Shown here piece after piece: positions 1-36,244 of a stretch of DNA of 64,000 bases. Every line of letters starts with the position of its first letter. Position 1 is the stretch's first letter. The translations under genes and the position numbers were made by a program. The notes under the pieces were generated by a model, which was not told the origin of the DNA, did not search any database, and saw nothing but the letters and a program-made list of their open reading frames with translations. Source of the DNA: Rhizophagus irregularis (taxonomy: Eukaryota). The stretch lies in the NCBI RefSeq assembly GCF_026210795.1, contig NC_089431.1, positions 4,836,001 through 4,900,000 on the forward strand, written 5' to 3'.

Positions 1-1259
1 TTAATAATTGCCACGGTACGAGATTGATCATCACAAATATTATGAAATTTTTTAGGGGTAAATCCATCACGAGATCCACGAAAAATTAATTTAAACTCAT
101 AAAGATTTTTCATCGCATGCTCAACCTTTAACTTATCGATCCATTTTGAAATTAATACTGCATGTTGAATTGTAATAATTTTTGAATCAATAATTATCTG
201 TGATTCTAACTTGATACTTGGGTTATAATCATTATTGATTTCATGACTAACCTTAACTGTCTGTAGTTCTAATTTGCTGATTGGGTTATAGTCATTATTA
301 TTCATTTTATAACTGATTTCTTTAACCTCTTGTGGCTTTAATTTATTACTTGGATTATAATCGTTATTCAAAAACCATTTATTTAAGTTTTCATATAACC
401 TTTCAGGCATAATCATTTTATAAGGATATACTTTGTTTAAAAATTCCTTAGAAGTAAATTTAATAAATTTGATAAAAGGAATACATTGTTGCAAAGTATT
501 CTTTAAGGCGACAAAATCATCGTTTGAATAACTTAAAGGATCAGAAGAAAGTCCAGGATTCTGAGCAATACCCCATTTAAACACATGTTCCCAAATTTGA
601 ACTTCACTTATTTGTAGGTTATCATTTTGAATAATTGAGATTAAAGATTTTTCTGAAATTGAAGTGAAATCAGGTGAATTGAATATTTTTTCTGGTTCTT
701 TAGACATTAATTTTGTACAAAACTTTTGAAGTTCCAAGAAGGCATCATTTTCAAAGCTAATCTGATATATCAAACTAAAATTTTGTTCCATCCAGCTTGC
801 TTTATTATTAATTAAAAATGATTGTAAACGAGGAATCAATTCGTGAAGACTTAGTTCACTTGCGGTGACTAAAACCTTAATGATATCTAAAGTATCACAT
901 TCATCCAACGAAAGTTTTCCTCCATAAATATATCTATAAAACGTTTATAAAAAATTAAAAATAAATTCATAGGAATCATTTACTTATACATACATAAATT
1001 AATTAATTTACCTTAAAATTATTTGAAAAATTTCTGGTAAAATATTTGATAATTTAATATTTACCAATGTTCCGTCATTTTCCTTTTTATTTGTTGATAA
1101 AATTCTTCGCAAATAAGGAGAACGATAATTTAAAATAACCATATGAGCACGAAATACTTTTACGTAAGGGTCATTACCAACTTCAATTGTAATGTCATAA
1201 TATTCGTCATCATCCAAAATTTCGAGTAAATTTTGTGATAATTTTGGTAATAATTCCAT
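1..1259 (-). CDS. BTB/POZ-BACK-TLDc domain protein, 3' end runs off the window. Exon 1 1259-1012, exon 2 933-<1.
   Basis: BTB motif YYDITIEVGNDPYVKVFRAHMVILNYRS. GT-AG intron 1011-934. Exon 2 reads YIYGGKLSL... through to the TLDc start FKLIFRGSRDGFTPKKFH. Confidence 0.85.
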
Positions 1260-1424
1260 TATAATCGTTAGAAAGAAAAAAAAAATTTTTTTAAGGCTGA
1301 ACCTTATATAGTACTAATAGTAGCACAATTCCTAAAATTAATTAGTATGGCTGCAGATCATAAATCTTAGATCATCATTTTCAATTTTAAAAATTTATTC
1401 ATTCAGAAAATATACAATATCAAT

Positions 1425-3064
1425 TTTTTATATAATCTGAAATACTTCATATTCTTCTATAGAAAAAGTACCATTGTTTCTCTGATCAATTTTTCATAAG
1501 ATCTTTTTCTACAATAATTTTAATTATTATTATTATAAAAATCATAATCGTTCTTTACAGAAACTTCAAGATCGTAGCGATGGCTTAATGCGCAGTAACT
1601 GCGTTATAAATACATAGTGACCACATTATGTAATCGTAAAGAAATTACATATATGTAGTTACTGTGCATTAAGCCATCGCTACGATCTTGAAGTTTCTGT
1701 AAAGTTACTAGAACTTCTATACATTATAAGATCTCCATAACCAAATGATGAACCATAACGATTCCAATAATTCATAGCATTTTTTTCATCTTTTACTCAA
1801 CTTATAATATGATCATTAATATTTTTTTTATTCGTAAAAGAAAATATGAAACTATCTTTAGTAATACCGTAACCACTAGACTTCCACTCAATTGGATTAT
1901 ATCCTCAAAGAATTTTATCACTATTTTTTACCTTAATAATTGTTACAGTACGAAATTGATAATCAAAATTTCATGAAATTTTTTAGGCATAAATCCATCA
2001 CGAGAACCACGAAGAATTAATTTGGAATTCATATAAATTTTTTGTTTTGTCTGTAATTTCCAATCTATCAATCCATTTTGAGATTAATTCAACATGTTGA
2101 ATTGTAATAATTTTTGAATCAATGTTTTCATGATCAATCTCTTTGATTATCTCTAGTTGTGGCTTGCTATTATGATTACAATCGTGAACCAAAAAATATT
2201 TTATTAAATTTTCATACATCTCTTTAGGAATTACCTTTTTATATGGATATACTTTGTTGAGAAATTCTTTTAAGGTTAATTTGAAGAATTTAATAAAAGG
2301 GATACATTGTTTTAAAGTATTCCTTAAAATATTAAAATCACCCTTTGAAAAGTTCGAAGGGGTCTAATGAAAGTTCGGGATTTGAGCAATACCCCATTTA
2401 AGTGCATATTCCCAAATTTGAACTATACTCATTTGAACATTATCATTTTGAATAATTGAGATTAAAGATTTTTCTGAAATTGAAGTAAAATCAGGTGAAT
2501 CAAAAATTTTCTCAGGTTCTTTAGAAATTAATTTTATACAAAACTTTCGAAGTTCTAAGAAAGATTCATTTTCAAAGCTCGGTTTGTATATTAAACTAAA
2601 ATTTTGTATCATCCAATCTACTTTGTTTTCAATCAAAAAGAATTGTAAATGAGGAATTAATTCATGAGGACTTAATTCACTTGCAGCGATTAAAATTTTA
2701 ACGATGTCTAAAGTATCACACTCTTTCAACGAAAGTTTTCCACAATAAATATACCTTAAGAATAAAAAATGGATTAAATCAAACATTTAAAGAATTAACT
2801 TTTAAATTAATTAATTTACCTTAATATCATTTGAAAAATTTCAGGTAAAATATTTGGTAATTTAATTTCCATCATTTTTCTTTTCATTTGTTGATAAAAC
2901 TCTTCATAAATAAGGAGACCTATAATTTAAGATAACCATATGAGCATGGAAATACTTTTACGTAAGGATCATTACCAACTTCAATTGATATATCATAATA
3001 ATTTCATCATCTGAGATTTCTAATAATTTTGTGCCAATTTTGTTAAAAACTTATTTTCAGCCAT
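1425..3064 (-). pseudogene. BTB-BACK-TLDc pseudogene with frameshifts, stops and a MITE insertion
   Basis: Fragment ORFs 2364-2786 and 1998-2219 are paralogous to the neighbouring genes. Exon 1 and the TLDc part are broken by stops and indels. Confidence 0.85.
1553..1704. mobile_element. 152-bp MITE with ~50-bp terminal inverted repeats and a 2-bp TT target duplication
   Basis: ctttacagaaacttcaagatcgtagcgatggcttaatgcgcagtaact... pairs with ...agttactgtgcattaagccatcgctacgatcttgaagtttctgtaaag. It is flanked by tt on both sides. Removing it restores the TLDc frame (SSNDYDFYN). Confidence 0.85.
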
Positions 3065-5497
3065 TTATAATGTTACGTGAAGAATTAAGTTAAAAAGAAA
3101 AAAAATATAACCAAACCTATACCGACCAACTTTATATATTAACACGGTTATAACTTCCTGAATTGGAAATTAACCGTCCGTTCGATCATCATATATATGC
3201 ACCGGTTAAAATTTGAGGAAATAAACAAAAACTTCACTAGATAATTGCTTACATATTATTTATTTTTTTTATTTAGAAATTTGTTTTATTATCAATTATA
3301 AATTTAAGAGGACCATGAAAAAGAATAAATAGATAAAATAAAGTAAATCTCGTTAAAAAAGAGATAAAGTTAATTTTTTCCTCTCCAGATTAAACATTTT
3401 TTTAAGTACCATATAAAAATACTTAAAAAAATATAATAAACTCATTATACTGCACAATTTAGCTTAATTACTTTACGACTTTTTGATCTTCAGGTTCAAT
3501 ATTTCCTTGGTCGTTACGTGCCATAATACACACAAAGAAGATGGTTTCTTGCTTTTTTTTTCTTCCCCTCATTTGTCTTTAATTTTCTTTTCGTTACTTC
3601 TCAAAGTTGAGTAAAAAAACTTACCCAAATCGCGATTGGAAAAAATCAAAAACAAATATAGATTTTTCTCTCGTTTCGCTGGGCAGAAAAGAAACAAAAA
3701 AAATGAATAAATTTTTGTCGGATTATCGAGCGGCAAAATAAATCCTTTAAATTAGTGAATCAAGTCAACTATGATCATTGATCGAGAAAGCTAAATTTTG
3801 TTCGATCAAATCATTGATCCCGAATTTTTCAGTCACATAAATTGATTTTTAAAATTAGAATTATTAAGATATAATGATTTTTATTTTAAAATAATCACTG
3901 CGAGTATAGTTTGAATTTAGACACAAACTGATAAAGTAAATATAATTTGCGATATCGTAACTCATTATTTCACTGATCTATGATCTATTTGAAATAATTA
4001 AATAATTTCAATTCGTATTTTTGTTTATCTTGTATAACAAAAAAATTGTTTAATCTTCTGATGAAATAGGATGAGTTTTTTTTTAAAATGGATTTTATGT
4101 GACGTGCTTAATTGCTTCAATAAAAACAAATATTCTTACAAATCACAATTCTCAATAATATTTATATCGAAAAAAATAAAATTGTTATTCTCTCATAACT
4201 TTTATCCTCCCGTTCATTTTTTAGTAATATTTCTCTAAACTTTTACTATATTTCATGATGACGATCTGTGTCATAACTTTCTTTAGTATTAATAAAATGG
4301 CCTAATCTTAATTCATACTCTTCTAACTTGTTTTCATTGTAAGTTCCATGAATTATATTCTTTTCGTACATTAAACTATTCTATAGTTTAGACTATATAA
4401 TAATTACTTTATTATTAATTGAAATTTAAAGGTTAATTAACTACAGGAAGCGTATCAAATTCACGTGATCATAATGTTGACCAGAACTATTTATTTAAAT
4501 TTAGTCAGAACTACCGGAATCAATGGGCTCAAACCATATAATAAATTGTTCATAATTTTAGTGATTGTATACTAATTAAATGTATTTATTCAAACAAAAA
4601 ATATATTTATCTCAGTTATTTAGCAGCAATGATCCGATTCAAACCTAAGAGATGAAGAAACGAAAAAAAAATTATTAAAGGAAAAAGTTAGTAAAAAAAA
4701 ATAAATAAAAAAAGAAGAAACGGCGCCTCAGTATCAATTTTTTCTATCCAACGATAGGAACGAAAAAGAACTTATTAAGGGAAAAAATTAGTAAAAAAAA
4801 AAATAAATAAACGGGAAAAAAAGGGCTAATCCGATTACCGATCCCACCCTAAATGGTGGTAGAATGAAAAAAAAGGGAAAAAAAATTTCAGTTTGAAAAA
4901 AAAAAAGTGAAAAAGGAAAATTAAAAATATTAAATATTTGAAAGAAAAATTCTCCACTTCACACCAAAAAATCAAAAATCAGGAAAAAAATTTTGTGTTA
5001 ATCCTATTCGTAATGAGTAGGGTTACGACATCAATCAACGCCTAAACTATCTAATTCAGTTGCAAAAAAAAAAATAAAAAAAGAAAAAAAAACCGAAAAA
5101 GGAAAAATTTAAAAATACTAAATTTCATAAAGTCCATCGGAATGTGCACATGCCACATGATAATAAATACGAGTGCAGCATGTCACGCCTTTTGTAAGTT
5201 TTTCTTTAAGGGTTTTAGGGTTTGTTGTGTATGCGTACAAAAAAAAATTTGAAACTATTGTCACGAGTTTTCATATAGCGGCACGACCGGCACGTATTTC
5301 ATGTTAAATAATATAACTAATCCGCCGTCGAAGTTACAAATAATTTGAATTATGTAAGTTACTTTTATTACTTATCCATAATAAGTTTATTAGTTATCGA
5401 AGATAGTAGTTTTATTTGTATGTCTATGTTTATTGCGGTGAATTTAATCAAAAATAACTACACATTTAATACGATAGAAAAAAAAAATAACTGTACA

Positions 5498-7442
5498 TCA
5501 ATTTTGTTTTATAACCTGAAATATTTCAAAATCTTCTATAGAAAAACATTCATTGGTTTTTCTAATCGGTTTTTCATAGGAACTCATTTTACAATAATTA
5601 CTATTACCATCGTAAAAATTGTCATAATTTCCGGGACCTCCATGCATTATAAGATCTCCATAACCAAATGATGGACCATAACGACTCCCATAATTTATGG
5701 CATTCTTTTCACTTTTTACTCGACTTATAATGTGATCATTAATACTTTCTTTATTCGTAAAAGAAAATATAAAACTATCCTTAGTATTACCGTAACCAAA
5801 ATCAGATTTCCATTCAACCGGATTATATCCTCCAAGAATTTCATTACTATATTTCACTTTCATTATTGTTAATGTATCGGATTGATTATCGCAAATTTTA
5901 TGGAATTTTTTAGGCGTAAATCCATCGCGAGATCCCCGAAATAATAATTTGAATATATAATTTTGTTTACGTGTAAATATAAATTTCGAAACTAAATTAT
6001 AAGTGGTTGAGCTTTTCACAATATCTACTTTATCAATCCACTTTACAATTAATTCAGCATGTTGACTTGAAATTATTTGAGATTTTGATTGAACCTCTTT
6101 TGTCATCTGAGGATCTGGTTGTATTTGATTTGTCTCTTCAGCCATCAAAGGTTTTGATTGATTCGCCTTGGTTTCATTTTGAGATTTCGGTTGAATTTGA
6201 TTAGTCTCTTCGGCCATCAAAGGTTTTGATTGATTCGCTTTGGTTTCTTTCTTAGGTCTCGGTTGAATTAGATTTGTCTCCTCAGCCATCAAAGGTTTTG
6301 ATTGATTCACTTTGATTTCTTTCTTAGGTCTCGGTTGAAGTTGATTTGTCACTTCAGCCATCAAAGGTTTTGATTGAGTACCTTTAGTTTCTTCAATCTT
6401 CTCAAGTCCTACTTGAATCGGTTCAGTCTCATTTGTTGTTGTAAAAGTATTTAGATTGTTTTTAGATTCCAAAAAATAGATAATTAAATTTTCATATAAA
6501 TTTTCAGGTATAACCTTTTTATAAGGATATACTTTATCTAAAAATTCTTTAGGAGTGAATCTAGTAAATTTAATAAAAGGAATAAAATTTTGTAAAATAT
6601 TTTTTAAAATAATAAAATCATCATTTGAATAATTTGAAAAAGGTTTAGAAGAAAGTTTTAAATTTTGTTTTATACCCCATTCAAGAATATAATCCCAAAT
6701 TTGTACTTCATTCATTTTAATAATAATATTAATATGAATATTAATATTATTATAATTATTATTAATATTATCTTCTTTATCTTTTAAGATTGTTAATAAA
6801 AGATCTTCTGATATAGAAAAAGTATTTAATGATTTTAATATTTTATCAGGATTTTTAATTATAAAATCTTTACAATAATTTTGTAATTTTAAAAATGAAT
6901 CATTTTCATAACTCATTTGATAAATTAAATCAAAATTTTGTTCCATCCAATTTTCTTTATTTTCAATTAAGTAAGATTCTAAATATGGGATTATTTCTTG
7001 TAATCCAAGTTCTTTTGATGTTTTTAAAATTTTAATTATATCAGAAGAATCATAATCTTTTAAAGAAAGTTTTCCACTATAAATATATCTAAAAAAAAGT
7101 AAAGAATTTTTTTTTTACGTAAGTAAAAAAAATAAAATATAATTGAAATAATGACTTTTTTTGAAAAAAAAAAATTTTTTTTCACCTTAAGATTATTTGA
7201 AAAATTTCAGGTAAGATATTTGATAATCTAATATTTATTAAGGTTCCATCATTTTTCTTTTTAATTGTTGATAAAATTTTTTTAAAATAAGGAGAACGAT
7301 GATTTAAGATAACTCTATGGGCGTAAAATATTTTAACGCAAGGGTTGTTACCAACTTCAATTATAATATCATGATATTCTTCATCATTTAAAATTTCAAG
7401 TAAATTTTGTGATAATTTTGGTAATAATTTATTTTGAACCAT
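5498..7442 (-). CDS. BTB-BACK-TLDc protein with an internal 21-aa repeat linker, 2 exons
   Basis: BTB exon about 7442-7186, then an intron, then exon 2 about 7088-5498 with BACK (EVQIWDYILEWG) and TLDc (LLFRGSRDGF, ILGGYNP, GPSFG). Confidence 0.9.
6110..6395 (-). repeat. Coding tandem repeat, about 4.5 x 63 bp (KETKANQSKPLMAEETNQIQP-like)
   Basis: gccatcaaaggttttgattga recurs at 63-bp spacing and the repeat is visible in the translation. Confidence 0.9.
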
Positions 7443-8038
7443 TGTTGTTTACCATTTATTATTGTCGTTATTATTGTATCGTTATTATTGTTGTTATTAT
7501 TGAAAAAAAAAATGTTTATAGAGCGAGTTAATGAAGAATTGATAGAGTGAAAAAATTGATTTAATGCCTAAAATGGAATTGAATGAAAGAGCTTATAAAG
7601 TTAATTTATCAAAAATAGTTAATTTATAATTTAATGAATTTAATGGAAATATTTATTATTAATAATTCCGATTACATTCATTGATGATTCGAAAAAATTG
7701 TTGAAAATAGAAAATTTTCAACTATAAAATCACGTGCATTTAATCATTCGATCTTCGAGATCTTCCTTTTACATTGCGTCATTGACATAATAAGGAGTTA
7801 TACTGCTAAATTTTTTAAAAAATAGGGAGTAGTAGTACCCTTTGATTTAATAAGTAGATCTTAGCGAGTTAGCGTTGTCAAATTAGTCAGTTAGTCAATG
7901 AATAATATTAGCTATAAATAAAATTTTTTTAGGCATAAATGACTATTTTATTGGTTATCATTATAATAAAAAATAATTTTTTTGTAATACATTCTGTAAT
8001 AATAATTATCTGTTGTACAAAAAAAAAAAAATTTTTAT

Positions 8039-10051
<2,013 letters not shown>

Positions 10052-11950: not shown

Positions 11951-12558
11951 AAATGCCTTGTATAATCCAGCAGATATCAATGGTGTAGTTTCTTATCAAA
12001 ATATTTAAATAATATTAAAAATAAAAGTCAACAAATATAAATTAAGTATAATCAGCTATTGAAATAAGTATAAAACAGTTTCATTATCATTAGAAATGGT
12101 TTTATATTATTATTTTGATAATTTATATCTCATAATTGGAAAAGTTATAAAAAAAAGATTTATTTAAATTACAAACTAAGAAACTTGTAAAATATTTTCT
12201 ACTCTAATCTTAGTGTTCAAATAATTCTAAGTATAATAAAAAAACGTGAATATAAGCTAAAAAAAAAGAATTATCTAAATTACAAACTAAGAAACTTGTA
12301 AAATATTTCACTACTCTAGCCTTAGTGTTTAAATAAATTTAAAAAGAATAAAATAAAAAAAACAATTTCTTTGAATGTTGTAATGTAAAATATCACTTAA
12401 AAAAACTATAAATTTTTTTAAAAACGAACAATGATTGGTTAATTTTTATCTGCTTTAATATCTAAATAAAAAATTATTAAATAAAATTAATTTCACATAA
12501 ATAATTTGCAAGATTAATACTTTTATATATATAATACATACCTAATAACCCCAGACCC

Positions 12559-15500
12559 TTAATTATATATATAATCATTCAAATCTTCACTTACTAGCAT
12601 TTCATTTGCTTTTACACTAGCTTGTGAATCTTCACTTTCAGGAATTTCATTCAACTTTTTACTAGTACTCTCGTCTGTTTTAATAATTAAATAAATAAAT
12701 TAATTTCATATAAATAATTTGCAAGATTAATTTTTTTTATATATTATAGTATATACCTAATGACCTCGAATCTCTGATTAAACAATCATTCAATTCTGAA
12801 TGACTTGCATGATATGCTTTTTCACTTTCAAGAATTTCATTCAATTTTTTACTAGTAAAATCAAGTAAACGACTTTTAAAACAAGCTTTAGGATGAGATC
12901 TAGTAGCAAGATTTTTATGCCCAATTGGTGCATTTATAAATTCCATAATGTTGCTTTTTAATTCTTCATTAATATCTTCAACTTTCACTTTATATGGGAG
13001 AAAATTCCATTTTTCAATAATTTCAAATACTTCTTTAGAAGATGGTCTTTTTAGTGGATCTTCATTCCAACATTTTTTCATTAAATCTACATAACATTGT
13101 GGAGTATTTTCAATAATTTCAGGACGTTCACCTTTACAAATACTTAAACTAAGATGAATATCATGTGCTCTATTATTAAATGGTGGTATTCCAGATGTAA
13201 ATTCCCACATAATCATAGAAAAACTATATATATCACTAGCTGGAGTATAAGATTTGCCTCTCAAAACTTCAGGTGCCATAAATGGTATAACACCATAAAT
13301 ATCATACTTTTTCAAAAACGATTTTACGGGTTGACATAATCCTAAATCACTAATATAAATTTTATCCTTATTCTCAACATTATGATTTAAAATATTACCA
13401 TCATGAAAATCACAATGAATAAGTTTTTCTTCATGTATATTATTAAGTCCAGAAATAATTTCGTACAACATATATAATTTTTGACTCCAATTATTTACAA
13501 CTATTCTTGTTAAATTTTCTCTTAAGTTACCTTTATTTGCATAATACATTACTACCATATATTTTGATGTATTTGGATCTTCTGTGAATCCATAAAATTC
13601 TATAATATCTTCTGAACTTAAAACACTTGTATGATATTCCCACTATAAAAAATAATAATAATTTATTAATATAAATAAATTAAAAATAGAAAATAATATA
13701 CTATCATACTTCTTTCAAAAATTCATTTAAATCTTCATTTAAATTCTTGTGACATTTAAGAATTACTTCTTCATCTTCTTCATCATCATCTTCTTCATCT
13801 TCTCCATTTCTATTATTCTTTAACCAAATAGCTTTGTATATAGTACCAAATCCTCCTTCATTAAAATATTCAACATTTTTAAATTTGTTATAAGGAAACC
13901 ATCTTAATCCTTTTTCAAGAATAAAATCGTCTATAATTGTATTACCACTTTTCCCAAATCTATAAATTTAATTAATTAAATTTATTATTATAGATTGATT
14001 ATAATTTATACATATAAATTATTACTTACTCTAAATTTAAATAGGAATTTAATGAATACAAGCCTTAATTTTTAGATAAATACATATAATAACCTATGAT
14101 TTACGATTTACAACTTACTGACTAAAGTGACAGATATTTTTCAAATAAAAGAATGAATTCAGTTAACAAATAAATATTATATAAAATATATAACTTTAGA
14201 GATACTTACAAGCTAGATCATAAACAATTTTAAATAAAGAAATTAGTTAGTTTAAATTATATGTAAATATTATAACAATAAGTAATAATAGAATTAAATA
14301 AATAACTTATAACTTACAATCTATTAAATAAAGAAATTAGTTAGTTTAAATTATATGTAAATATTATAACAATAAGTAATAATAGAATTAAGTAAATAAC
14401 TTACTCCCTATATTATTTAATAATTTTTTAAATAAAAAAATTAGTTAGTTTAAATTATATGTAAATATTATAACAATAAGTAATAATAGAATTAAATAAA
14501 TAACTTACCATCTATATTATTTAATAATTTTTTAAATAAAGAAATTAGTTAGTTTAAATTATATGTAAATATTATAACAATAAGTAATAATAGAATTAAA
14601 TAAATAACTTACTCTCTATATTATTTAATAATTTTTTAAATAAAGAAATTAGTTAGTTTAAATTATATGTAAATATTATAACAATAAGTAATAATAGAAT
14701 TAAATGAATAACTTATAACTTGCCAACTAAAATAAATTACAAAATAATTTTAAATAAAGAAATTAGTTAGTTTAAATTATATGTAAATATTATAACAATA
14801 AGTAATAATAGAATTAAATAAATAACTTACTCTCTATATTATTTATGTATTTTTAAATAAAGAAATTAGTTAGTTTAAATTATATGTAAATATTATAACA
14901 ATAAGTAATAATAGAATTAAATAAATAACTTACTCCCTATATTATTTAATAATTTTTTAAATAAAGAAATTAGTTAGTTTAAATTATATGTAAATATTAT
15001 AACAATAAGTAATAATAGAATTAAATAAATAACTTTTACTCTCTATATTATTTAATAATTTTTTAAATAAAGAAATTAGTTAGTTTAAATTATATGTAAA
15101 TATTATAACAATAAGTAATAATAGAATTAAATGAATAACTTATAACTTGCTAACTAAAATAAATTACAAAATAATTTTTAAATAAAGAAATTAGTTAGTT
15201 TAAATTATATGTAAATATTATAACAATAAGTAATAATAGAATTAAATAAATAACTTACTTCCCTATATTATTTAATATTTTTTTAAATAAAAGAAATTAA
15301 ATTTAGTTTAAATTATATGTAAATATTATAACAATAAGTAATAATAGAATTAAATAAAGCAACTTATAAACTTACAATCTATTAATAAAGAAATTAGTTA
15401 GTTTAAATTATATGTAAATATTATGTAATAAGTAATAATAGAATTAAATAAATAACTTATAACTTACAATCTATTAAATAAAGAAATTAGTTAGTTTAAA

Positions 15501-18500
15501 TTATATGCTAAATATTATAGCAATAAGCAATAATAGAATTAAGTAAATAACTTACTCTCTATATTATTTAATAATTTTTTAAATAAAGAAATTAGTTAGT
15601 TTAAATTATATGTAAATATTATAACAATAAGTAATAATAGAATTAAATAAATAACTTACTCCCTATATTATTTAATAATTTTTTAAATAAAGAAATTAGT
15701 TAGTTTAAATTATATGTAAATATTATAACAATAAGTAATAATAGAATTAAATAAATAACTTACTCTCTATATTATTTAATATTTTAAATAAAGAAATTAG
15801 TTAGTTTAAATTATATGTAAATATTATAACAATAAGTAATAATAGAATTAAATGAATAACTTATAACTTGCCAACTAAAATAAATTACAAAATAATTTTT
15901 AAATAAAGAAATTAGTTAGTTTAAATTATATGTAAATATTATAACAATAAGTAATAATAGAATTAAATAAATAACTTACTCCCTATATTATTTAATAATT
16001 TTTTAAATAAAGAAATTAGTTAGTTTAAATTATATGTAAATATTATAACAATAAGTAATAATAGAATTAAATAAATAACTTATAACTTACAATCTATTAA
16101 ATAAAGAAATTAGTTAGTTTAAATTATATGTAAATATTATAACAATAAGTAATAATAGAATTAAATAAATAACTTATAACTTACAATCTATTAAATAAAG
16201 AAATTAGTTAGTTTAAATTATATGTAAATATTATAACAATAAGTAATAATAGAATTAAGTAAATAACTTACTCTCTATATTATTTAATAATTTTTTAAAT
16301 AAAGAAATTAGTTAAGTTTAAATTATATGTAAATATTATAACAATAAGTAATAATAGAATTAAATAAATAACTTACTCCCTATATTATTTAATAATTTTT
16401 AAATAAAGAAATTAGACCAGTTTAAATTATATGTAAATATTATAACAATAAACAATAATAGAATTAAATAAATAACTTACTCTCTATATTATTTAATAAT
16501 TTTTAAATAAAGAAATTAGTTAGTTTAAATTATATGTAAATATATAACATGCAGTAATAATAGAATTAAATGAATAACTTATAACTTGCCAACTAAAATA
16601 AATTACAAAATAATTTTTAAATAAAGAAATTAGTTAGTTTAAATTATATGTAAATATTATAACAATAAGTAATAATAGAATTAAATAAATAACCTCCCTA
16701 TATTATTTAATAATTTTTTAAATAAAGAAATTAGTTAGTTTAAATTATATGTAAATATTATAACAATAAGTAATAATAGAATTAAAATAATAACATAACT
16801 TACAATCTATTAAATAAAGAAATTAGTTAGTTTAAATTATATGTAAATATTATAACAATAAGTAATAATAGAATTAAATAAATAACTTACTCTCTATATT
16901 ATTTAATAATTTTTTAAATAAAGAAATTAGTTAGTTTAAATTATATGTAAATATTATAACAATAAGTAATAATAGAATTAAGTAAATAACTTACTCTCTA
17001 TATTATTTAATAATTTTTTAAATAAAGAAATTAGTTAGTTTAAATTATATGTAAATATTATAACAATAAGTAATAATAGAATTAAATAAATAACTTACTC
17101 CCTATATTATTTAATAATTTTTTAAATAAAAAGTAGTTAGTTTAAATTATATGTAAATATTATAACAATAAGTAATAATAGAATTAAATAAATAACTTAC
17201 TCTCTATATTATTTAATAATTTTTTAAATAAAGAAATTAGTTAGTTTAAATTATATGTAAATATTATAACAATAAGTAATAATAGAATTAAATGAATAAC
17301 TTATAACTTGCCAACTAAAATAAATTACAAAATAATTTTTAAATAAAGAAATTAGTTAGTTTAAATTATATGTAAATATTATAACAATAAGTAATAATAG
17401 AATTAAATAAATAACTTACTCCCTATATTATTTAATAATTTTTTAAATAAAGAAATTAGTTAGTTTAAATTATATGTAAATATTATAACAATAAGTAATA
17501 ATAGAATTAAATAAATAACTTATAACTTACAATCCTATTAAATAAAGAAATTAGTTAGTTTAAATTATATGTAAATATTATAACAATAAGTAATAATAGA
17601 ATTAAATAAATAACTTATAACTTACAATCTATTAAATAAAGAAATTAGTTAGTTTAAATTATATGTAAATATTATAACAATAAGTAATAATAGAATTAAG
17701 TAAATAACTTACTCTCTATATTATTTAATAATTTTTTAAATAAAGAAATTAGTTAGTTTAAATTATATGTAAATATTATAACAATAAGTAATAATAGAAT
17801 TAAATAAATAACTTACTCCCTATATTATTTAATAATTTTTTAAATAAAGAAATTAGTTAGTTTAAATTATATGTAAATATTATAACAATAAGTAATAATA
17901 GAATTAAATAAATAACTTACTCTCTATATTATTTAATAATTTTTTAAATAAAGAAATTAGTTAGTTTAAATTATATGTAAATATTATAACAATAAGTAAT
18001 AATAGAATTAAATGAATAACTTATAACTTGCCAACTAAAATAAATTACAAAATAATTTTTAAATAAAGAAATTAGTTAGTTTAAATTATATGTAAATATT
18101 ATAACAATAAGTAATAATAGAATTAAATAAATAACTTACTCCCTATATTATTTAATAATTTTTTAAATAAAGAAATTAGTTAGTTTTAATTATATGTAAA
18201 TATTATAACAATAAGTAATAATAGAATTAAATAAATAACTTATAACTTACAATCTATTAAATAAAGAAATTAGTTAGTTTAAATTATATGTAAATATTAT
18301 AACAATAAGTAATAATAGAATTAAATAAATAACTTACTCTCTATATTATTTAATAATTTTTTAAATAAAGAAATTAGTTAGTTTAAATTATATGTAAATA
18401 TTATAACAATAAGTAATAATAGAATTAAATGAATAACTTATAACTTGCCAACTAAAATAAATTACAAAATAATTTTTAAATAAAGAAATTAGTTAGTTTA

Positions 18501-19449
18501 AATTATATGTAAATATTATAACAATAAGTAATAATAGAATTAAATAAATAACTTACTCCCTATATTATTTAATAATTTTTTAAATAAAGAAATTAGTTAG
18601 TTTAAATTATATGTAAATATTATAACAATAAGTAATAATAGAATTAAATAAATAACTTATAACTTACAATCTATTAAATAAAAGTAGTTAGTTTAAATTA
18701 TATGTAAATATTATAACAATAAGTAATAATAGAATTAAGTAAATAACTTACTCCCTATATTATTTAATAATTTTTTAAATAAAGAAATTAGTTAGATTAA
18801 ATTATATGTAAATATTATAACAATAAGTAATAATAGAATTAAATATATAACTTACTCCCTATATTATTTAATAATTTTTTAAATAAAGAAATTAGTTAGT
18901 TTAAATTATATGTAAATATTATAACAATAAGTAATAATAGAATTAAATAAATAACTTATAACTTGCCAACTAAAATAAATTACAAAATAATTTTTAAATA
19001 AAGAAATTAGTTAGTTTAAATTATATGTAAATATTATAACAATAAGTAATAATAGAATTAAATAAATAACTTATAACTTACAATCTATTAAATAAAGAAA
19101 TTAGTTAGTTTAAATTATATGTAAATATAGTAATAATAGAATCAAATAAATAACTTACCATCTATATTAATTAATAATTTTTTAAATAATGAAATTAGTT
19201 AAATTATATAAATAATATAAATATAGATATCATATAACTTACACCCTGTAGTATTATTAATTATTAATTAGTTAAATATAAAGATAATATAAAAGTATTT
19301 ACTTGTAAATTATATATATTACTTACAATCTAGTTATTTAAATTAAGAATATAATTAGTTGAATTATGTAAAATATTAAACATGAATTGTTTATAAATAA
19401 AAACTTAATATTTCAGCTTGTTTGATATACCTTTAATACATTTGTCCAT
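12559..19449 (-). CDS. TKL-type Ser/Thr/Tyr protein kinase. Conventional exons are 13959-13710, 13642-12757 and 12674-12559. Predicted 5' part is exon 19449-19431 plus 53 micro-exons.
   Basis: The kinase itself is well supported: EGGFGTIY, VILK, IHCDFHDGN, DLGL, MAPE, DIYSF. The 13959 exon has no in-frame ATG and starts at an acceptor. The upstream micro-exon chain links it in frame to the ATG at 19449. The 5' structure is inferred from splice signals only. Confidence 0.8.
14210..19330 (-). repeat. Tandem array of about 50 intron + 3-nt exon units (87-111 bp) with a ~720-bp seven-unit higher-order repeat
   Basis: On the + strand each unit boundary reads acttac-NNN-cta or acttgc-NNN-cta. On the minus strand that is TAG|NNN|GTAAGT or GCAAGT. 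The shared core contains CTAACTAAT upstream of the acceptor. Confidence 0.92.
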
Positions 19450-19922
19450 TACTATATCAAAATTCTTTAAATTACTATATCAAAATCTCAAATTCTCCCC
19501 AACCGGAAAAGTTAAAGTAAATATCTTTTTTTCTTTTTTTTTTTATTATTAAGCGCCTTTAATGCAAAATACATTATGTGCAAAAATGTTGATCACAAGT
19601 ACATCATTGCATATATGACAAATAAACCGGAAGTCCGGAATGTAAATCAATTATTACAAAAATCGCAGTAACTGATTAATCATTTAATTATTAAGCACCA
19701 ATGAAATGATTATCATTCATTAACCCAAAGATAAGATTTTCTGGTAATTTTTATCTTTAAGGGGAAAAAATTTTAGTCGATCATCCCATTTTGACCAGAT
19801 TTTCGCCAAAATTTTCCCATTCCATTTTTAAAAATCACCACATGCACAGTTGCCGTGGATACGAAAAAAATTGCCTTTTTGGTAAAAAAGTCTCCAGTTA
19901 ATCTTTATATTATTATTGTACT

Positions 19923-19987
19923 TGTACATGTACATGAACATGAACATGAACATGAACATGAACATGTACAGTACATGTACATGTACA
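19923..19987. repeat. (CATGAA/CATGTA)n microsatellite
   Basis: tgtacatgtacatgaacatgaacatgaac...atgtacagtacatgtacatgtaca. Confidence 0.85.
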
Positions 19988-20119
19988 GAGAAAGTGAACA
20001 TTCACTATGGAAACTTTTTGCGCTGAGTTTAACTGTGCTGCTCAAAAAGAATGTTAATTTGACAGATCATGAAATAGTATGTTGATCATTTTTTATTAAA
20101 ATGTGAAAAAAAAAAAATT

Positions 20120-20935
20120 TTTTTTTAATCAAAAACGTCAAAAATTTGACGTTTTTGTGATTGAAAAATCAAAAAAAAATTGATTTTTTTTAATCAAAAC
20201 GTCAGACTTGACGTTTTTGTGATTGAAAAATCAAAAAAAATTAATTTTTTTTAATCAAAACGTCAGACTTGACGTTTTTGTGATTGAAAAATCAAAAATA
20301 ATTGATTTTTTTTAATAAAAAACGTCAAAATAATTGATTTTTTTAATCAACTTGACGTTTCTGTGATTAAAAAATCAAAAAAAATGATTTTTTTAATCAA
20401 AAACGTCAGACTTGACGTTTTTGTGATTAAAAAATCAAAAAAAAATGATTTTTTTAATCAAAAACGTCAGACTTGACGTTTTTGTGATTAAAAAATCATT
20501 TTTTTTTGATTTTTATTAGCTAAGAACGTCAGACTTGACGTTTTTGTTATTAAAAATCAAGAAAATTTGATTTTTATTAGCTAAGAACGTCAGACTTGAC
20601 GTTTTTGTTATTAAAAATCAAGGAAAAATGATTTTTATTAGCTAAGAACGTCAGACTTGACGTTTTTGTTATTAAAAATCAAGGGAAAATGATTTTTATC
20701 AGCTAAGAACGTCAGACTTGACGTTTTTGTTATTAAAAATCAAGGGAAAATGATTTTTATTAGCTAAAAACGTCAGACTTGACGTTTTTGTTATTAAAAA
20801 TCAAGGGAAAAATGATTTTTATTAGCTAAAAACGTCAGACTTGACGTTTTTGTTATTAAAAATCAAGGGAAAATGATTTTTATTAGCTAAAAACGTCATA
20901 CTTGACGTTTTTGTTAGCTAAAAATCAAAAAAAAT
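20120..20935. repeat. About 60-bp minisatellite, roughly 13-14 copies, each with the palindrome AAAACGTCA-gact-TGACGTTTT
   Basis: Direct reading. Units change gradually along the array (taatcaaaa becomes tagctaaga). Confidence 0.92.
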
Positions 20936-20949
20936 AGTGTACTTTTGTA

Positions 20950-22365
20950 AAAGTATACTAATAAATTAATAAAAGATTTTTTTATAAACAATAGATTGTG
21001 TTTAGTGAGATTTATAAAAAAATTTAATGAGACTTTTTTTTAATAATAGTTTGGTATAAAAAAATTTTCTAGGATTTTTTTTTTTAATAATATAATGGTA
21101 TAGTACAATAGATAGATATAATAAAATTTTCTGGAATTTATTTTAATAACAATAGGTATGATAACATTTTTGGTGATTTTTTTTTAATATTAAACAATAG
21201 ATTGGTATCATAGTACAATAGATTTATTTAACAAGATTTTTGTGATTTTTTTAATAACAATAAATTGGTAATAACAATCATTAACTTATTAAGTTAATAA
21301 TTGTTTTTTAGTAAAATTTTTTCCAGTAATACTAATACTACTAATAGGTAATAGATAACTTAATAAACTTTAATAAAATAGATTAAGATATATAAAAAAA
21401 ATTTGAGATTTTTTTAACAATAGATTGGTATAGTACAATGAATAGATATAAAAAAATTTTCTGAATTTTTTTTTTAATAATAGATTGATATAAATATATT
21501 TTCTGAACTTTTTTTTAACAATAGAGTCATTAGATCAATATAAAAAATTTTTTGATAACAACAGATTGGTATGTTATAACTTATAATGGATAGATATAAA
21601 GAATTTTCTAAGATTTTTTATTAATACAATAGATCAGTTTCTGGAATTTTTTATGACAAATTAATTGGTATAGTACAAAAGATACTAGGTATAAAATTTC
21701 TTGGGATTTATTTTAACAACAATAGGTATGATAAAATTTTTGGTGACTTTTTTTTAATAACAATAGATTGGTATTACTGCGACTAGTAATTGAAAACCAA
21801 TATGATTTGCCAATTCATTATCAGTTCAGTTTTTAATGTTTTTGCAACATTTTTTATTGTCTATTACCAATCTATTGTTATTAAAAAAAAACACAAAAAA
21901 TTTTATTAAATCAATCCATTGTACTATACCATCCATTGTATTATAATACCAATCTATTATTGTTATTAAAAAAAAAATAATCACCAAAAATTTAGCATAC
22001 CTATTGTTATTAATATAAATCTCAGAAAATTTTATTATATCTATCTATTGTACTATACCATTAAAAAAATCTTGGAAAATTTTTTTATTAACCTTATTAA
22101 ATGTAATCTATTGTTTTATTTATATTACTTATCAGTAATATTAGTGTTACTGTGAACTATAAAAAAAATCTTACTAAAAACAATTATTAACTTCAGTTAA
22201 TAAGTTAATTGTTTATTACCAATATATTGTTATTAAAAAAAATCATAGAAAATTTTTTTATACCAAACTATTATTAAAAAAAAATCTCATTAAATTTTTT
22301 TATAAATCTCACTAACACAATCTATTGTTATAAAAAAATCTTTTATTAATTTATTAGTATACTTT
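20950..22365. repeat. Long imperfect inverted repeat (foldback-like), arms about 20950-21775 and 21862-22365
   Basis: aaagtatactaataaattaataaaagatttt...gtgagatttataaaaaaatttaatgaga at 20950-21030 is the reverse complement of 22285-22365. The subrepeat aacaatagattggta on the left appears as taccaatctattgtt on the right. Confidence 0.85.
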
Positions 22366-25315: not shown

Positions 25316-26674
25316 ATGTTAAATAACTCTCTATTGACAAACTCTTTTTTCATTAATGGCTCTAAAAAATTTCAGTTACGCTCATTACGCCCATTCTCAT
25401 CAACAAGATATAATATTGTCGCATCACACGTAGAGAAAAGACTTGCTGTGTTAAATAAAGTAATTTTATTTTTTAAATTATTATCAAATAACATATAGCA
25501 AATAATCAGTTCTTTACTCGTTTAACTTAACAGATTTACTCACCACTTATGATTTATCATAAAGAGAAACTTGATTGGGCTAAACTTATCAGATCCGGAA
25601 AGGTCTGGGAAAATTATTTTGGTCCATTTGAATGGCGAGAAAAGGATTATGGTATGAACTAAAAATATTTTTATTTTGTTTTAATTTTGACTAATTAATC
25701 AATTTAATTTTTTTTTTTTCATTCAAAAGAATTTCGATCAAAATATGCTGATGTATTGAAAGAAATTGATGCATTCAAAGACTCTAAGAAAGTTACAGCT
25801 GCAAACTTTTTACAAAGTATGACTGCTAGTTTTACACAACAAAGTTGTGCATTGGAAGGAAATAAATTAGGGATAATAGATACGCAAAAAATTTGGAATT
25901 CACTGAAAAAAAATTATAATTTTGATAATATTATGACAAATTGGAATATACCATTACCTGCACCAAGCTCTCTTTCTGATAAAGAAGAAAATAAAGTTAT
26001 TGAAATCCGGAATCATCTAATTGCAACTTATTATCTTTATAATACTTTGTATGTGACAAAGAAAAAAATTGATTTTGACGAAATAAAAAGAATTCATCAA
26101 ATTCTTTTAAAAGGTACACCAATGGAGAATGTCCAATTAAATGATTATGATTTTTGTGAGGATAAATTTCAAAGAGAGTTTATTCTACATAGTGGAAAAT
26201 TTCGTAAATTGAGTGTAGATTCATGTATTTCTAATGATGTAATTCATCCAGTAAGTTTTAACTATTTAAGTTTTTTTTATTTATTAATATTTTATTGTAA
26301 TTGATTTAATTGATTTCATACTTTTATAATTCGTGTAGTTTCCCATTGAAGTACCTGCATTGATGAGAAGTCTTTTACTATTTATAAATTATGGTATTCC
26401 TGATAAGATTCACCCTATTATGTTTGCGTGTCGTATACTTTCTGCCTTTCATCATATTCATCCATTTAGTACTGCCAATGGACATGTTGGTCGTTTAATT
26501 ATGGCACTATATCTCATCCGCAATGATTATCCGCCTGTTATTTTCCATCAAATAAATCAAGAGGAATATAATTCTACTCTATTAATGTCACAAGGAGAAA
26601 TGGATTCAACTTCGTTATATGCTTTAGCGGTAGTAAATATTCTTAACAATTTTATAAAGATGCACACAACATGA
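25316..26674 (+). CDS. Fic/Fido-domain protein. Exons 25316-25459, 25534-25651, 25730-26250, 26339-26674.
   Basis: All three introns are GT-AG and keep the frame. It has the inhibitory-helix motif SCALEGN, IKRIHQILL, GKFR, and the Fic-like loop HPFSTANGHVGRL. Confidence 0.88.
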
Positions 26675-29232: not shown

Positions 29233-30722
29233 ATGTTTTCGAAATTTTTGGCCGAGTTATCCGATGATTATAAGAAACTTTTTGAAACTGAAATAGGATA
29301 TGATGTTATTATATATGCAGGAGAAGAACCAAATGTTAAAGAAATTCATGCTCATTCAAATATTTTAATCGTTAGATCACAATATTTTCGTGCCGCATTG
29401 TCCAATGAATGGGCAAAAAAAGTAAATGGGAAATTTATTTTAAAAAAACAAAATATTAAACCACATTTGTTTGATATCATTCTTAGGTAATACTATATTT
29501 TTATGGTAATTTTTAATTTTTTTTTATATTTTTAAATAAATTATTAATCATTAATTTGTATTAAAATTATGTTTATAGATTCATTTATTATGGAGATATT
29601 GAATTGAAAAATTTACAAGGTCCTAATGTATTGAACTTATTGATCGCAGTGGATGAACTTAATATTCATTCATTGATTACTTATATTCAGGAATATTTGG
29701 TTGAACATCAAATTGAATTCTTACGTCAAAATCCAACCAGTATTCTTGAAATTATTTATAAACATGAAACTTTTACAGATTTATGGAATTTTTCTCTTGA
29801 AAGAATTTGTGAAGAACCTAAAATATTATTTGATTCTGATAATTTTATTAATTTAAAAGCTTCTTTATTAGAAATATTATTGAAACGGGATGATTTGAAT
29901 ATGGATGAAATTGAAATTTGGGACAACTTATTGAAATGGTGTTTGGCACAGCATAATATGATCAGTGATCCAACAAAATGGAACAAAGATGATATTTCAA
30001 AGATTGAAAGGACATTGCACAAATTTATTCCATCAATTCGATTTTATGATATTGAACCAACAGAATTCTTTTACAAAGTCTATCGTTATAAAGAAATTTT
30101 ACCACGAGACTTAATTCACGATCTTTTGGAGTTTCATATTGTTCCTAATAAGAAACCTAAAACTAATATACCACCTTCAAGAAAACAAAATTTAAAATTA
30201 AATCTTATTATACCAAATCATAATCATCTTTTTGCTTCATGGATTGATAAAAAAGATTCTTCATATTATAATAAAAAGAATGTTCCATATGATTTTAAAT
30301 TATTATATCGTTCAAGTAGGGATGGATTTGATGCTAGAATATTCCATAGAAATTGTGACAATAAAGGAGCTACTATTTGGATAGCAAAAATTGAAGACTC
30401 AACAAATGTAATTGGAGGTTATAATCCACTTGATTGGAATGGAGATGGTTGGAAATATACTAGAAATAGTTTTTTATTCAGTTTTGCAGATTGGAAAAAT
30501 ATTTCTAATACCACAACAAAATTATCTTATATCAATAATAATAAAAGCAAAAATTATGCTATTTATTGTGATAATAATCATGGACCACATATGGGTGATT
30601 TGTATTGCTCTAATTCCAATAATTGGACTTATGATGGTTATTTAGATTACTATCCTAATTTAGATATTCCAAAAAACATTATAATAGAGGATTATGAAGT
30701 ATATCAAGTAATTAAAAAATAA
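29233..30722 (+). CDS. BTB-BACK-TLDc protein. Exons 29233-29486 and 29579-30722.
   Basis: YDVIIYAGEEPNVKEIHAHSNIL, EIEIWDNLLKW, LLYRSSRDGF, IGGYNP. The frame is intact across a GT-AG intron. Confidence 0.92.
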
Positions 30723-33827: not shown

Positions 33828-36244
33828 TTAACTAGTTTTAATACGTTTTCCTACTTTAAAAATTTTAGATTTGGTTAAAATAAAATATACATACAAAAAA
33901 TCAAAATATACACAGACAAAGATTGATATTTACCATCGATTTCAAGATTTAATTCTTCAATGTTTCGCTTTTTAAAAGAGGTTGAAATATTTTGAATTTT
34001 TAAACTTAAATTTTGTGATGATGAACTAAATAATAAATTAGTGTCAATTAATTAATTAGTAAACATCGTACTACCATTTACAATGAAAATACCTTTCAAT
34101 GTCTATATCAAACTCTTGTTCTTCCGAAACATAAATATAATTAGAATCTAAGGAAGATAACGTGTGTTTTAACTTTTAAGATTAAGTAGTATTTTTATTT
34201 ACAATAGATTTTTCTTTATTAATACCTTTTTTATTACCAATTGAAATTGATGATGAATTTGTGGATAAACATTTAGAAATTAAAGCGCTTAATGGCCTAC
34301 TTATATAATTGGCTTCTGAATGTCGTTTTTCAGCAAATTCTGGTCCAAGCTTCTTTGATTGTATAAGTTCCATTCTTTTTGTTTCAGCTTGAATAAATTC
34401 TGCTTTATTTTTACCTTTAAAAGTCCATCTACCAAAAGTTAAACGAATATCTTTTATAGAAGGTCTTTTTGTTGGATCAGGATCCCAACAACTTTTCATT
34501 AAATTAGCATAACATTCTGGTGTATCTTCTGTAATTTTGGGTCGTTCACCATCAAGAATGTTATAAATAAGATTATGATCATGTTTAACATTATCAAAAG
34601 GTTTACAACCTGTTGTAAGTTCCCACATAACCATACCCAAACTATAGACATCAGCTTTTTTAGAAAATGAAGACCCCTTAAATATTTCCGGTGCAATGTA
34701 AGGTATAATTCCATATATCTCATTATTTGATGATTCATTATTTATTTCTTGTGATAATCCTAGATCCCCAATTTTCCATTGATAATTTTTACCTGCACTG
34801 GTATTTAAATCAAATAACATATTTCCGCTATGAAAATCTCGATGTATGAATTTATTTTTATGAACATGTTCAAGTCTAAATAAAAAAAGTTAATACAGTA
34901 ACTTAAATTAAGAATATAATGAATACATTTTAAAATATACATACCCCTCTGAAATTTGCCACAATATACGTAGTTTTTGATAATTCCATGTAATATTTGT
35001 AAATTCCTTTTGTAAATATTTATGTAAATCTCCTTCTGTTGCATATTTCATAATTAATACATAATCCCCTAATTCAGGATCTTTTGTAAAGCCATAAATT
35101 TTAATTATATGATTTTGAAAATTTCTACTATAACAATGGTGACTTGATTTTAACTATTAAATTTAAAAAGTTTAATTAAAAGATCAAATATTAGTAAATT
35201 AAGTTAATAAAAATTATTCAAGAAAATATGTAAAAGTAGTAAATTCACCTCATTTAAGAAATATTTAATATTATTTTTAGAATTTTCAAATCTTTTTAAA
35301 ATGACTGTTTCATTATTACTTAACCAAGTTGCTTTATATATAATACCATATCCTCCTCTTGTCATTTCTTTTACATCTTTAAATTGAGAATATGGTATCC
35401 ACTTAATTGGTATTATAATATTTTTTTTAAGCATAGCATCTAATATGTCCGTAGGCATAAAATATTTATCAAGATTATTTACAGTATTTTCAAACTTAGC
35501 TAAGTTATCACATAAAATAATGATAAATGATATTCTTTTACATTTTTTACATTGAGTTTGACCTGTAGGACCAAAAATAATATTTGTTGTTAAACAATAT
35601 CTGCATCCAACATAAAATATATAACAATTTGAACAATACTTTTGACAGTCTGATGTAAATATTAATGTTGAATAACAGACATCACATTTATAAACAGTAT
35701 GCCACCATGGTATGTAAAAAATTGAAATTTTTTTTTTAATCAAAGATGATTCCATACGTTCAGTAAACATTAAATAACAATTTGAACAAAATATAAATTC
35801 TTTTGTAACATATGTTTCTCGATGTAATAATGATTTCCCACATAATTTACAATATTTTTCACTTTTATACACTTTATCATATTTACCACCAGGAGTTGAA
35901 TGATTTTCTAATATTTGTTTAAATGATAAAATTTTCAAGTCTCCACAGAATTCTTGAATACTTTGTGGTACTTTTGTCTTATTTATTTCATGATCACTAC
36001 ATTCTAAGTCTACTAATACGTCTAAATACAAATTATAATCAGTTGTATCGTTAATATAACTTGATAAACATTTTTTACAATATTTTTGTTCATAACTTAG
36101 AAGTGATTGAATATATTTTTCTCCACAACTGATACAATTTTCATCACCCTTATTAAAAGAAATAAATTTAATCGGTATAGGACTAGATTTTAATCTTGGT
36201 GTTGGGTCAAAAGAATTTTCGTCAATTGTATTTACAGGCTCCAT
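33828..36244 (-). CDS. TKL-type protein kinase with a Cys-rich (CxxC) N-terminal region, 6 predicted exons
   Basis: RGGYGIIY, VILK, FIHRDFHSGN, KIGDLGL, YIAPE. Exons 36244-35249, 35153-34945, 34875-34226, 34147-34093, 34025-33934, 33850-33828. Confidence 0.88.

What the first reader, a model, noticed from the sequence alone, without database searches (positions are those of the whole stretch)
14030..19449. Apparent 5-kb satellite is a chain of 53 micro-exons encoding the N-terminus of a kinase
Seen: on the minus strand each repeat unit is a complete intron, with a GTAAGT or GCAAGT donor, a CTAAC branch-site match and a TAG acceptor. Consecutive introns are separated by 3 nt. From 19329 to 14318 I count 50 such exons: GGA x14, AGA x13, ATT x12, TTG x7, ATG x2, TTA x1, GGT x1. 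CTT (14212-14210), TCA (14121-14119) and a single A (14030) follow. Upstream is exon ATGGACAAATGTATTAAAG (19449-19431) with a GTATAT donor. The pattern continues into diverged, non-repetitive introns at both ends, which a neutral satellite would not do. Inference: joining everything, with three damaged units read as their 3-nt consensus, gives MDKCIK-DWYDFGRNWIENWIERKNYWIERKKNWIERKNYWIERKNYWIKRKIENGNSFK-FGKSGNTIIDDF. This is stop-free and in frame with the kinase. About 5.4 kb of DNA would encode about 53 residues, one codon-equivalent per intron. I know of no described gene with this many consecutive 3-nt exons, but I cannot search the literature.
Basis: partly seen in the sequence, partly recalled or inferred. 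Interest (0 to 1): 0.97.

Follow-up and report, generated by a model that had tools for sequence, protein, structure and literature searches.

The report
Codon-sized exon array in fungal kinase
A 5-kb 'satellite' in a mycorrhizal-fungus kinase gene is a row of about 50 complete introns separated by three-base exons, and RNA reads from this kinase family show such triplets stitched together, so the family likely builds a hypervariable protein segment one amino acid at a time, a trick the papers searched here report only for truffle immune-type receptors.

Summary
On the minus strand 48 of 51 G[TC]AAGT donors have an AG acceptor exactly 3 nt upstream, against 1 of 34 elsewhere in the window. The gene is a Rhizophagus tyrosine-kinase-like kinase. 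Poly(A) reads, mostly from paralogs, support the splicing. 76 of 106 reads leave the genome at donor 19431 and continue with ATT, GGT, the window's first two micro-exons. Two reads join 19431 to 19245 with only ATT between. 200 reads at the kinase acceptor carry a triplet string ending CTT, TTG, A. Public gene models catch these arrays in at least seven paralog lineages but read them in another frame. Not shown: that this copy includes all 53 exons (three units carry an extra base as assembled), how much skipping occurs, or what the segment does. It is not categorically new: Tuber melanosporum NACHT-ankyrin genes carry tens of alternatively spliced codon-sized exons (Iotti 2012, seen only through citing papers). 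It is likely an independent case, in another phylum and protein class. The scan noted a similar array on a kinase tail in another genome (e1-7450022, without RNA).

The parts
19431..19449 (-). First coding exon (19 coding nt from ATG, ends in phase 1; GT donor at 19430)
   Evidence: Sequence; 76 RNA reads leave the genome at 19431; public models with similar starts (MDQxI, MGQxI)
19327..19329 (-). Micro-exon 1 (ATT), between non-repetitive introns
   Evidence: 2 RNA reads join 19431 to 19245 with exactly these three letters between (table 5c); first triplet of the 76-read loose end
19243..19245 (-). Micro-exon 2 (GGT), CAG acceptor
   Evidence: Second triplet of the 76-read loose end; 8 reads enter the genome at 19245
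19159..19161 (-). Micro-exon 3 (ATG), edge of the homogenised array
14228..19201 (-). Homogenised array of about 47 exon-centred units of three classes (94, 104 and 115 nt), each an intron 3' half, a 3-nt exon and an intron 5' half
   Evidence: Tandem Repeats Finder; unit classes and variants
17531..17534 (-). Imperfect unit: 4-nt exon (one extra G after the acceptor)
16694..16697 (-). Imperfect unit: donor lacks three bases, leaving a 4-nt exon with a weak donor
15259..15262 (-). Imperfect unit: 4-nt exon (one extra A)
15040..15042 (-). 3-nt exon AGA with a weakened donor (GTAAAA)
14210..14212 (-). Micro-exon CTT, second-last triplet
   Evidence: CTT at the same offset in the 200-read loose end
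14119..14121 (-). Micro-exon TCA, last triplet, between non-repetitive introns
   Evidence: the RNA consensus has TTG at this offset (paralogs)
14030..14030 (-). 1-nt exon (A); an alternative GT donor 4 nt downstream would give a 5-nt exon
   Evidence: Kept with its AG and GTAAGT in L001; single A next to the junction in the RNA consensus; alternative donor
13710..13959 (-). Exon coding the SGN element, glycine-rich loop and beta-3 lysine of the kinase
   Evidence: identical to a R. irregularis protein fragment (P0168); 200 reads with a loose end at 13959 and 61 reads splicing 13710 to 13642
12757..13642 (-). Main kinase-domain exon (catalytic-loop Asp, DLG, APE present)
   Evidence: Pfam PF07714 E 1e-33 and PF00069 E 9e-33
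12559..12674 (-). C-terminal tail exon ending at a TAA stop

Best explanation
The array is a run of about 50 short spliceosomal introns whose 3-nt spacers are coding exons of a Rhizophagus tyrosine-kinase-like gene; RNA of this kinase family shows the triplets joined, and the chain likely serves as a hypervariable N-terminal binding or bait segment that is diversified one residue at a time. Shown: the anatomy; for the family, splicing of first exon to triplet chain to 1-nt exon to kinase exon in phase 1, so each codon takes one base from one exon and two from the next; partly spliced molecules with joined triplets next to retained introns. Inferred: each 70-115 nt intron is recognised on its own and removed in turn, because a 3-nt exon is too small to hold factors on both sides at once. 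Inferred: skipping of triplets keeps the frame and yields many isoforms. Inferred: unequal crossing-over in the shared intron core adds, removes and reorders exon-centred units in the genome. Inferred: the segment takes the place of the CxxC module that precedes the SGN element in longer relatives and has a recognition role, probably for non-self (about 50%).
For: RNA, run X24, about 24% of it read; of 106 reads laid on 19205-19760, 76 leave at donor 19431 and their consensus starts ATT, GGT, the window's first two micro-exons in order; 2 reads join 19431 to 19245 with only ATT between; 8 reads at 19245 have a consensus of an intron end with TAG followed by three joined triplets (TTG, ATG, ATT); of 2732 reads laid on 12300-14320, 200 have a loose end at 13959; the consensus reads as nine triplets, all with T in the middle, ending CTT, TTG and a single A, and is open in the kinase frame. 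DNA contigs of run X6 show one of those triplets (ATC) between AG and GTAAG in this repeat unit (table 5c). Splice zones carry 0 of 26 variable positions against 31 of 168 elsewhere in the first two introns (p 0.017). The pattern continues into terminal introns only 55-63% like the core. The triplet order avoids the one stop-forming pair in this phase; shuffles are stop-free 0.7% of the time; 2 of 48 single skips and 99 of 1176 block skips give a stop. Phase 1 puts Phe five residues before SGN, as in 83 of 145 such elements in 34 long relatives, 74 of 94 where a CxxC precedes. Eight public models carry I/L/M/V/G/R strings before the kinase exon, and such models are spread over the subfamily tree. 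Distinct substitution sites are enriched in the exons (4 of 9 against 21 of 304; p 0.003, or 0.025 counted conservatively).
Against: The reads are mostly paralogs: only 19 of 2732 are 99% alike or better, and most diverge from the window's 5' UTR at 19464-19466, with depth 2 beyond. The loose-end consensus lines are mixtures (agreement 0.58 and 0.60) and only 30 letters long, so chain length and skipping were not measured. Three units are 4 nt long as assembled, and indels are not depleted in signal zones (5 seen, 2.1 expected), which fits assembly errors or decay of this copy. The shuffle test overstates its case because the order arose by block duplication. The Phe match is a single residue. 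No evidence of function was obtained.
Confidence: 0.85

Rival explanations
1. The family uses short micro-exon chains, but this copy has undergone runaway, neutral expansion; its full chain is rarely or never spliced into a productive mRNA (decaying gene or mostly skipped array).
For: Three +1 units and one weakened donor; indels not depleted at signals; units nearly identical; almost no X24 reads match this copy's own 5' UTR; the tail exon stops just before the last small exon seen in the sequence.
Against: Kinase exons are open with catalytic motifs; the intact-only chain is stop-free and in frame; the damage is of the homopolymer-indel kind and clusters in 17572-15097; public models show strings of 20-50 triplets in other paralogs; skipping a damaged unit restores the frame.
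Confidence: 0.25
2. The triplets are read in phase 0 with a 5-nt exon at 14030-14026 and an internal ATG triplet as start, giving the hydrophobic I/L/V/M/G strings ending in S-K that public models show.
For: 27 of 110 public models end in SK before the kinase exon; a GT lies 4 nt into the last intron.
Against: The RNA consensus next to 13959 has a single A after a triplet, not the 5-nt exon; 76 reads link the phase-1 first exon to the chain; the family Phe appears only in phase 1.
Confidence: 0.05
3. A neutral satellite inside one long intron, or a recursively spliced intron whose spacers are discarded.
For: Satellite-like homogeneity and very high summed depth of the unit in DNA contigs; RNA depth of 30-40 on the unit suggests some intron-retaining molecules.
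Against: Triplets are kept in RNA at both ends of the chain; direct joining of exon 1 to the kinase exon is out of frame; the pattern persists in diverged introns.
Confidence: 0.03

Closest known systems
Tuber melanosporum nank (NACHT-ankyrin) NLR family (Iotti et al. 2012, PubMed 22289772; primary paper not held, read only through passages of PMC4986451, PMC3689799, PMC13449251, PMC9815663)
   Same: Expanded gene family of a mycorrhizal fungus with tens or dozens of 3-bp exons; proposed as a way to diversify a recognition segment.
   Different: Here the host is a tyrosine-kinase-like kinase of Mucoromycota, not an ascomycete NLR; the array is N-terminal, not in the C-terminal recognition region; alternative splicing is reported for nank but not yet measured here. 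Phase, intron homogeneity and a 1-nt exon could not be compared without the primary paper.
Schistosoma mansoni micro-exon genes (MEGs; passages of bioRxiv 10.1101/2023.06.21.545858)
   Same: Runs of short exons, mostly multiples of three, whose skipping gives isoforms at a host interface.
   Different: MEG exons are mostly 15 bp (3-81), 10-20 per gene, with introns of 0.1-5 kb, in secreted proteins with a signal peptide; here nearly all exons are 3 nt, introns are about 100-nt tandem copies, and the product is a kinase.
Arabidopsis APC11 single-nucleotide exon (PMC4674806, abstract)
   Same: Precedent for a working 1-nt exon such as 14030.
   Different: A lone exon, no array.
Expanded tyrosine-kinase-like family of Rhizophagus (PF07714 / PF00069)
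   Same: The gene is an ordinary member by its kinase domain and SGN element.
   Different: This subfamily has the micro-exon chain where longer relatives have a CxxC module.

Membership tests
Tuber nank-type codon-sized exon genes | Tens of consecutive 3-bp exons | tested here: met
   48 intact plus 4 imperfect units
Tuber nank-type codon-sized exon genes | Triplets spliced into mRNA | tested here: met
   For the family; for this copy only exons 1-2 match reads, which may be from paralogs
Tuber nank-type codon-sized exon genes | Extensive alternative splicing of the triplets | not testable with these tools
   Loose ends are given as one 30-letter consensus; low agreement cannot separate paralogs from isoforms
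Tuber nank-type codon-sized exon genes | NACHT plus ankyrin architecture | tested here: not met
   Pfam finds only kinase families: works like nank, is not a nank gene
Tuber nank-type codon-sized exon genes | Expanded paralogous family | tested here: met
   123 hits; triplet-string models in at least seven lineages of an 80-row tree
Schistosome MEGs | Secreted protein made mostly of micro-exons, with signal peptide | tested here: not met
   Most of the product is a kinase domain from two long exons; no signal-peptide predictor was run
Schistosome MEGs | Long non-repetitive introns (0.1-5 kb), exons mostly 15 bp | tested here: not met
   Introns 70-115 nt, exons 3 nt
Rhizophagus tyrosine-kinase-like kinases | PF07714/PF00069 domain above the curated cut-off | tested here: met
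   117 and 114 bits against cut-offs 23.1 and 31.7
Rhizophagus tyrosine-kinase-like kinases | Catalytic activity | not testable with these tools
   Gly loop, Lys, catalytic Asp, DLG and APE are present (motif names recalled)

The most novel reading that the evidence does not exclude
Arbuscular mycorrhizal fungi run a codon-resolution diversity generator: dozens of kinase paralogs carry satellite-like arrays of exon-centred units that are reshuffled by unequal crossing-over and skipped combinatorially at splicing, so that each gene yields a library of N-terminal recognition peptides. It would be an immune-like repertoire, evolved independently of the truffle system and hidden by wrong-frame annotation.
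Probability: 0.45. Interest if true: 0.9.

Novelty: new variant of a known kind. Interest (0 to 1): 0.78.

Why it matters
It would be a second, likely independent origin of codon-sized exon arrays, again in a mycorrhizal fungus and again in an expanded signalling family, which points to convergent selection for fine-grained variation. It gives a testable handle on why Rhizophagus keeps about 2,500 kinases (2,533 in PMC10234402). It shows that a satellite can be coding structure and that none of 110 public models examined has the junction that RNA supports. About 50 near-identical introns with 3-nt exons and a 1-nt exon are also an extreme natural test of ordered, intron-by-intron splicing.

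Tried and rejected
No whole genome is held for the window, so paralog arrays could not be scanned directly. A metagenome scan for the kinase-exon start gave 1 locus, L001, which reaches only 125 nt upstream. A viral-contig scan for the unit motif gave 14 single matches, none in an array, taken as chance and not examined. Prokaryote genomes: no relative among 599 pattern hits. Rfam: 0 matches in 13900-21000. ESM Atlas: only unnamed Mucoromycota clusters. Cluster members held no transcript-derived N-terminus. The array interior was not covered by any read alignment, so its length and order rest on the window alone. The search of protein representatives gave no result. The tree is the quick one, with many open forks; rows without a long enough kinase stretch were left out (80 kept), among them P0012. 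Rejected: recursive splicing with discarded spacers, and the phase-0 reading of public models as the main form. Literature searches (listings of 3 of 3, 20 of 74, 2 of 2, 20 of 174, 20 of 46, 4 of 4, 25 of 56, 6 of 6, 15 of 17) showed no description of this array in Rhizophagus; subscription journals are mostly missing and no supplements were read.

Full report
Observation. The stretch 14228-19201 is a tandem array. On the minus strand 51 G[TC]AAGT donors lie between 19326 and 14029, and 48 have an AG exactly 3 nt upstream; elsewhere in the window 1 of 34 does. Introns are 70-115 nt; 43 of 52 rows hold CTAAC. The first exon (19449-19431, phase 1), the 48 intact triplets, the single A and exon 13959-13710 form one open frame, whereas joining the first exon straight to the kinase exon is out of frame. 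Three units (17534-17531, 16697-16694, 15262-15259) are 4 nt long as assembled and would have to be skipped or be sequence errors; 15042-15040 has a weak donor.

The gene. The downstream exons code a kinase of PF07714/PF00069. The 83-residue exon product is identical to a Rhizophagus irregularis fragment (P0168), and the named hits among the 120 listed are R. irregularis, R. diaphanus and R. clarus. In longer relatives the same SGN element usually follows a CxxC module; Phe stands five residues before SGN in 83 of 145 elements. The phase-1 reading of the last triplets puts Phe there, in the window and in the RNA consensus. This is one residue and is modest support.

RNA evidence. Run X24 is poly(A) raw reads under the same species label as the best DNA holder; about 24% of it was read. 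At the 5' end, 76 of 106 laid reads leave the genome at donor 19431, and their consensus begins ATT, GGT, the window's first two micro-exons, followed by further triplet-like sequence. Two reads join 19431 to 19245 with only ATT between: both flanking introns are gone and the 3-nt exon is kept. Eight reads entering at 19245 have a consensus of an intron end, three joined triplets, and then the window's second micro-exon with its downstream intron still present, which reads as a splicing intermediate. Another 8 reads leave at 19435 into sequence of the kind that DNA contigs also show there, taken as paralogs with a longer first exon. At the 3' end, 200 of 2732 laid reads have a loose end at 13959. 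Their consensus divides into nine triplets, all with T in the middle, ends CTT, TTG, A, and is open in the kinase frame; CTT sits at the same offset as in the window. I reverse-complemented and divided these consensus lines by hand. Limits: agreement is 0.58-0.60, the lines are 30 letters, and most reads are paralogs (19 of 2732 at 99% or better; 5' UTRs diverge at 19464-19466). So splicing of triplet chains is shown for the family, not for all exons of this copy, and alternative skipping is not measured.

DNA evidence. Contigs of runs X1 and X9 cover the first two introns in many copies; 0 of 26 splice-zone positions vary against 31 of 168 others (p 0.017). Contigs of X6 show the array unit at very high summed depth and with other triplets, ATC among them, between AG and GTAAG. 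L001, a paralog from a metagenome contig, keeps the 1-nt exon with its AG and GTAAGT. The five outermost introns are only 55-63% like the core yet keep the pattern.

Array anatomy. Each triplet travels with its own upstream intron end and downstream intron start, in three classes (ATT; TTG; GGA/AGA/ATG), and all share the middle of the intron. The unit of duplication is therefore exon-centred; unequal crossing-over in the shared middle would add, drop or reorder residues (inference). The most frequent variant in the largest class is the first exon base, and distinct substitution sites are enriched in exons (4 of 9 against 21 of 304). The stop-forming pair ATT then AGA never occurs; shuffles are stop-free 0.7% of the time, though block duplication makes the positions non-independent. 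Only 2 of 48 single skips and 99 of 1176 block skips create a stop. Against a clean picture: indels in signal zones number 5 where 2.1 are expected, so recent damage has not been purged, or it is assembly error; it is mostly of the homopolymer kind and lies between 17572 and 15097.

Family-wide and misannotated. Eight public models have strings of I, L, M, V, G and R just before the kinase exon (P0040 and P0249 are similar by eye). These match triplets read in phase 0, closed by a 5-nt exon that uses a GT four bases into the last intron (my inference about the predictors' choice). One of them, P0157, ends M-M-L-L, as does the phase-0 reading of the RNA consensus. Of 110 models with the motif, 27 end in SK and none in FK or FE, the endings that phase 1 gives. 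Eight such models were placed in a quick tree of 80 rows and fall in at least seven lineages, in R. irregularis and R. diaphanus.

Mechanism. Shown: anatomy, phase, and family-level splicing with intermediates. Inferred from general splicing knowledge: the short introns are defined one by one and removed in turn. Inferred: isoform diversity by skipping and allelic diversity by unit shuffling. Most likely function (about 50%): a variable binding or bait segment in place of the CxxC module, used in non-self recognition, by analogy with the truffle case. No functional data were obtained.

Comparison with what is known. Passages of PMC4986451, PMC3689799, PMC13449251 and PMC9815663 describe Tuber melanosporum NACHT-ankyrin genes with tens or dozens of alternatively spliced 3-bp exons, citing Iotti et al. 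2012, which is not held; I first recalled this lead from memory. This gene works like those but is not a member: no NACHT or ankyrin domain, another phylum, N-terminal position. Schistosome MEGs (passages) have longer exons and introns and are secreted. A 1-nt exon is known from Arabidopsis APC11 (abstract). The long-read R. irregularis annotation paper PMC10234402 was searched for five terms (7 passages) and none mentions such arrays; its supplements were not read. Nine literature searches showed no description for Rhizophagus in the rows listed; the library lacks most subscription journals. An earlier scan note (e1-7450022) reports 29 three-base exons on a kinase tail in another genome, without RNA; I did not test it.

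Verdict. Real, spliced at the family level, and a new variant of a rare known kind. Interest 0.78.

Noticed in passing
window 20107-20935: A second satellite of 61-bp units with a short inverted repeat in each unit, about 0.7 kb upstream of the kinase start; a 6-bp repeat lies at 19917-19987. No splice-like pattern seen.
   Followed up: no
window 12559-12561 and 12440-12560: The kinase tail exon stops just before a donor and a further small exon; paralogs run on for a few residues, so a small frameshift may shorten this copy's C-terminus.
   Followed up: partly
P0040, P0071, P0082, P0122, P0187, P0190: Other paralogs have an acidic 8-residue repeat (EEFEGSG-like) after the first residues, and some begin Met-Gly with a nearby Cys, which resembles a lipid-anchor motif (recalled, not tested); the window's copy has neither.
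   Followed up: no
window 14204-14320: Poly(A) reads of X24 cover the last array unit at depth 30-40, which may be intron-retaining transcripts from other arrays or spurious AT-rich matches.
   Followed up: no
window 13302 and 13378: 24 RNA reads show an opposite-strand joint inside the kinase exon; possibly a library fold-back or an inverted paralog.
   Followed up: no
window 1-3100, 5498-7450, 29234-30722, 40031-41522, 43211-46100: Cluster of BTB/BACK-TLDc-like genes, several apparently broken (family label recalled from motifs, no call); the one at 5498-7450 has a 72-bp coding repeat at 6117-6393.
   Followed up: no
window 34182-36253 (-) and 59400-60615 (+): Two more kinase genes of the wider family; no AG-NNN-GYAAGT array next to them in the scans.
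   Followed up: partly
window 52309-53150: Pyrimidine-rich 18-bp tandem repeat, 44 copies, with long open frames on both strands.
   Followed up: no
window 8123-10050 (-) and 25400-26674 (+): An intron-rich alcohol-dehydrogenase-like gene and a Fic-domain-like gene (labels recalled from motifs, no call).
   Followed up: no
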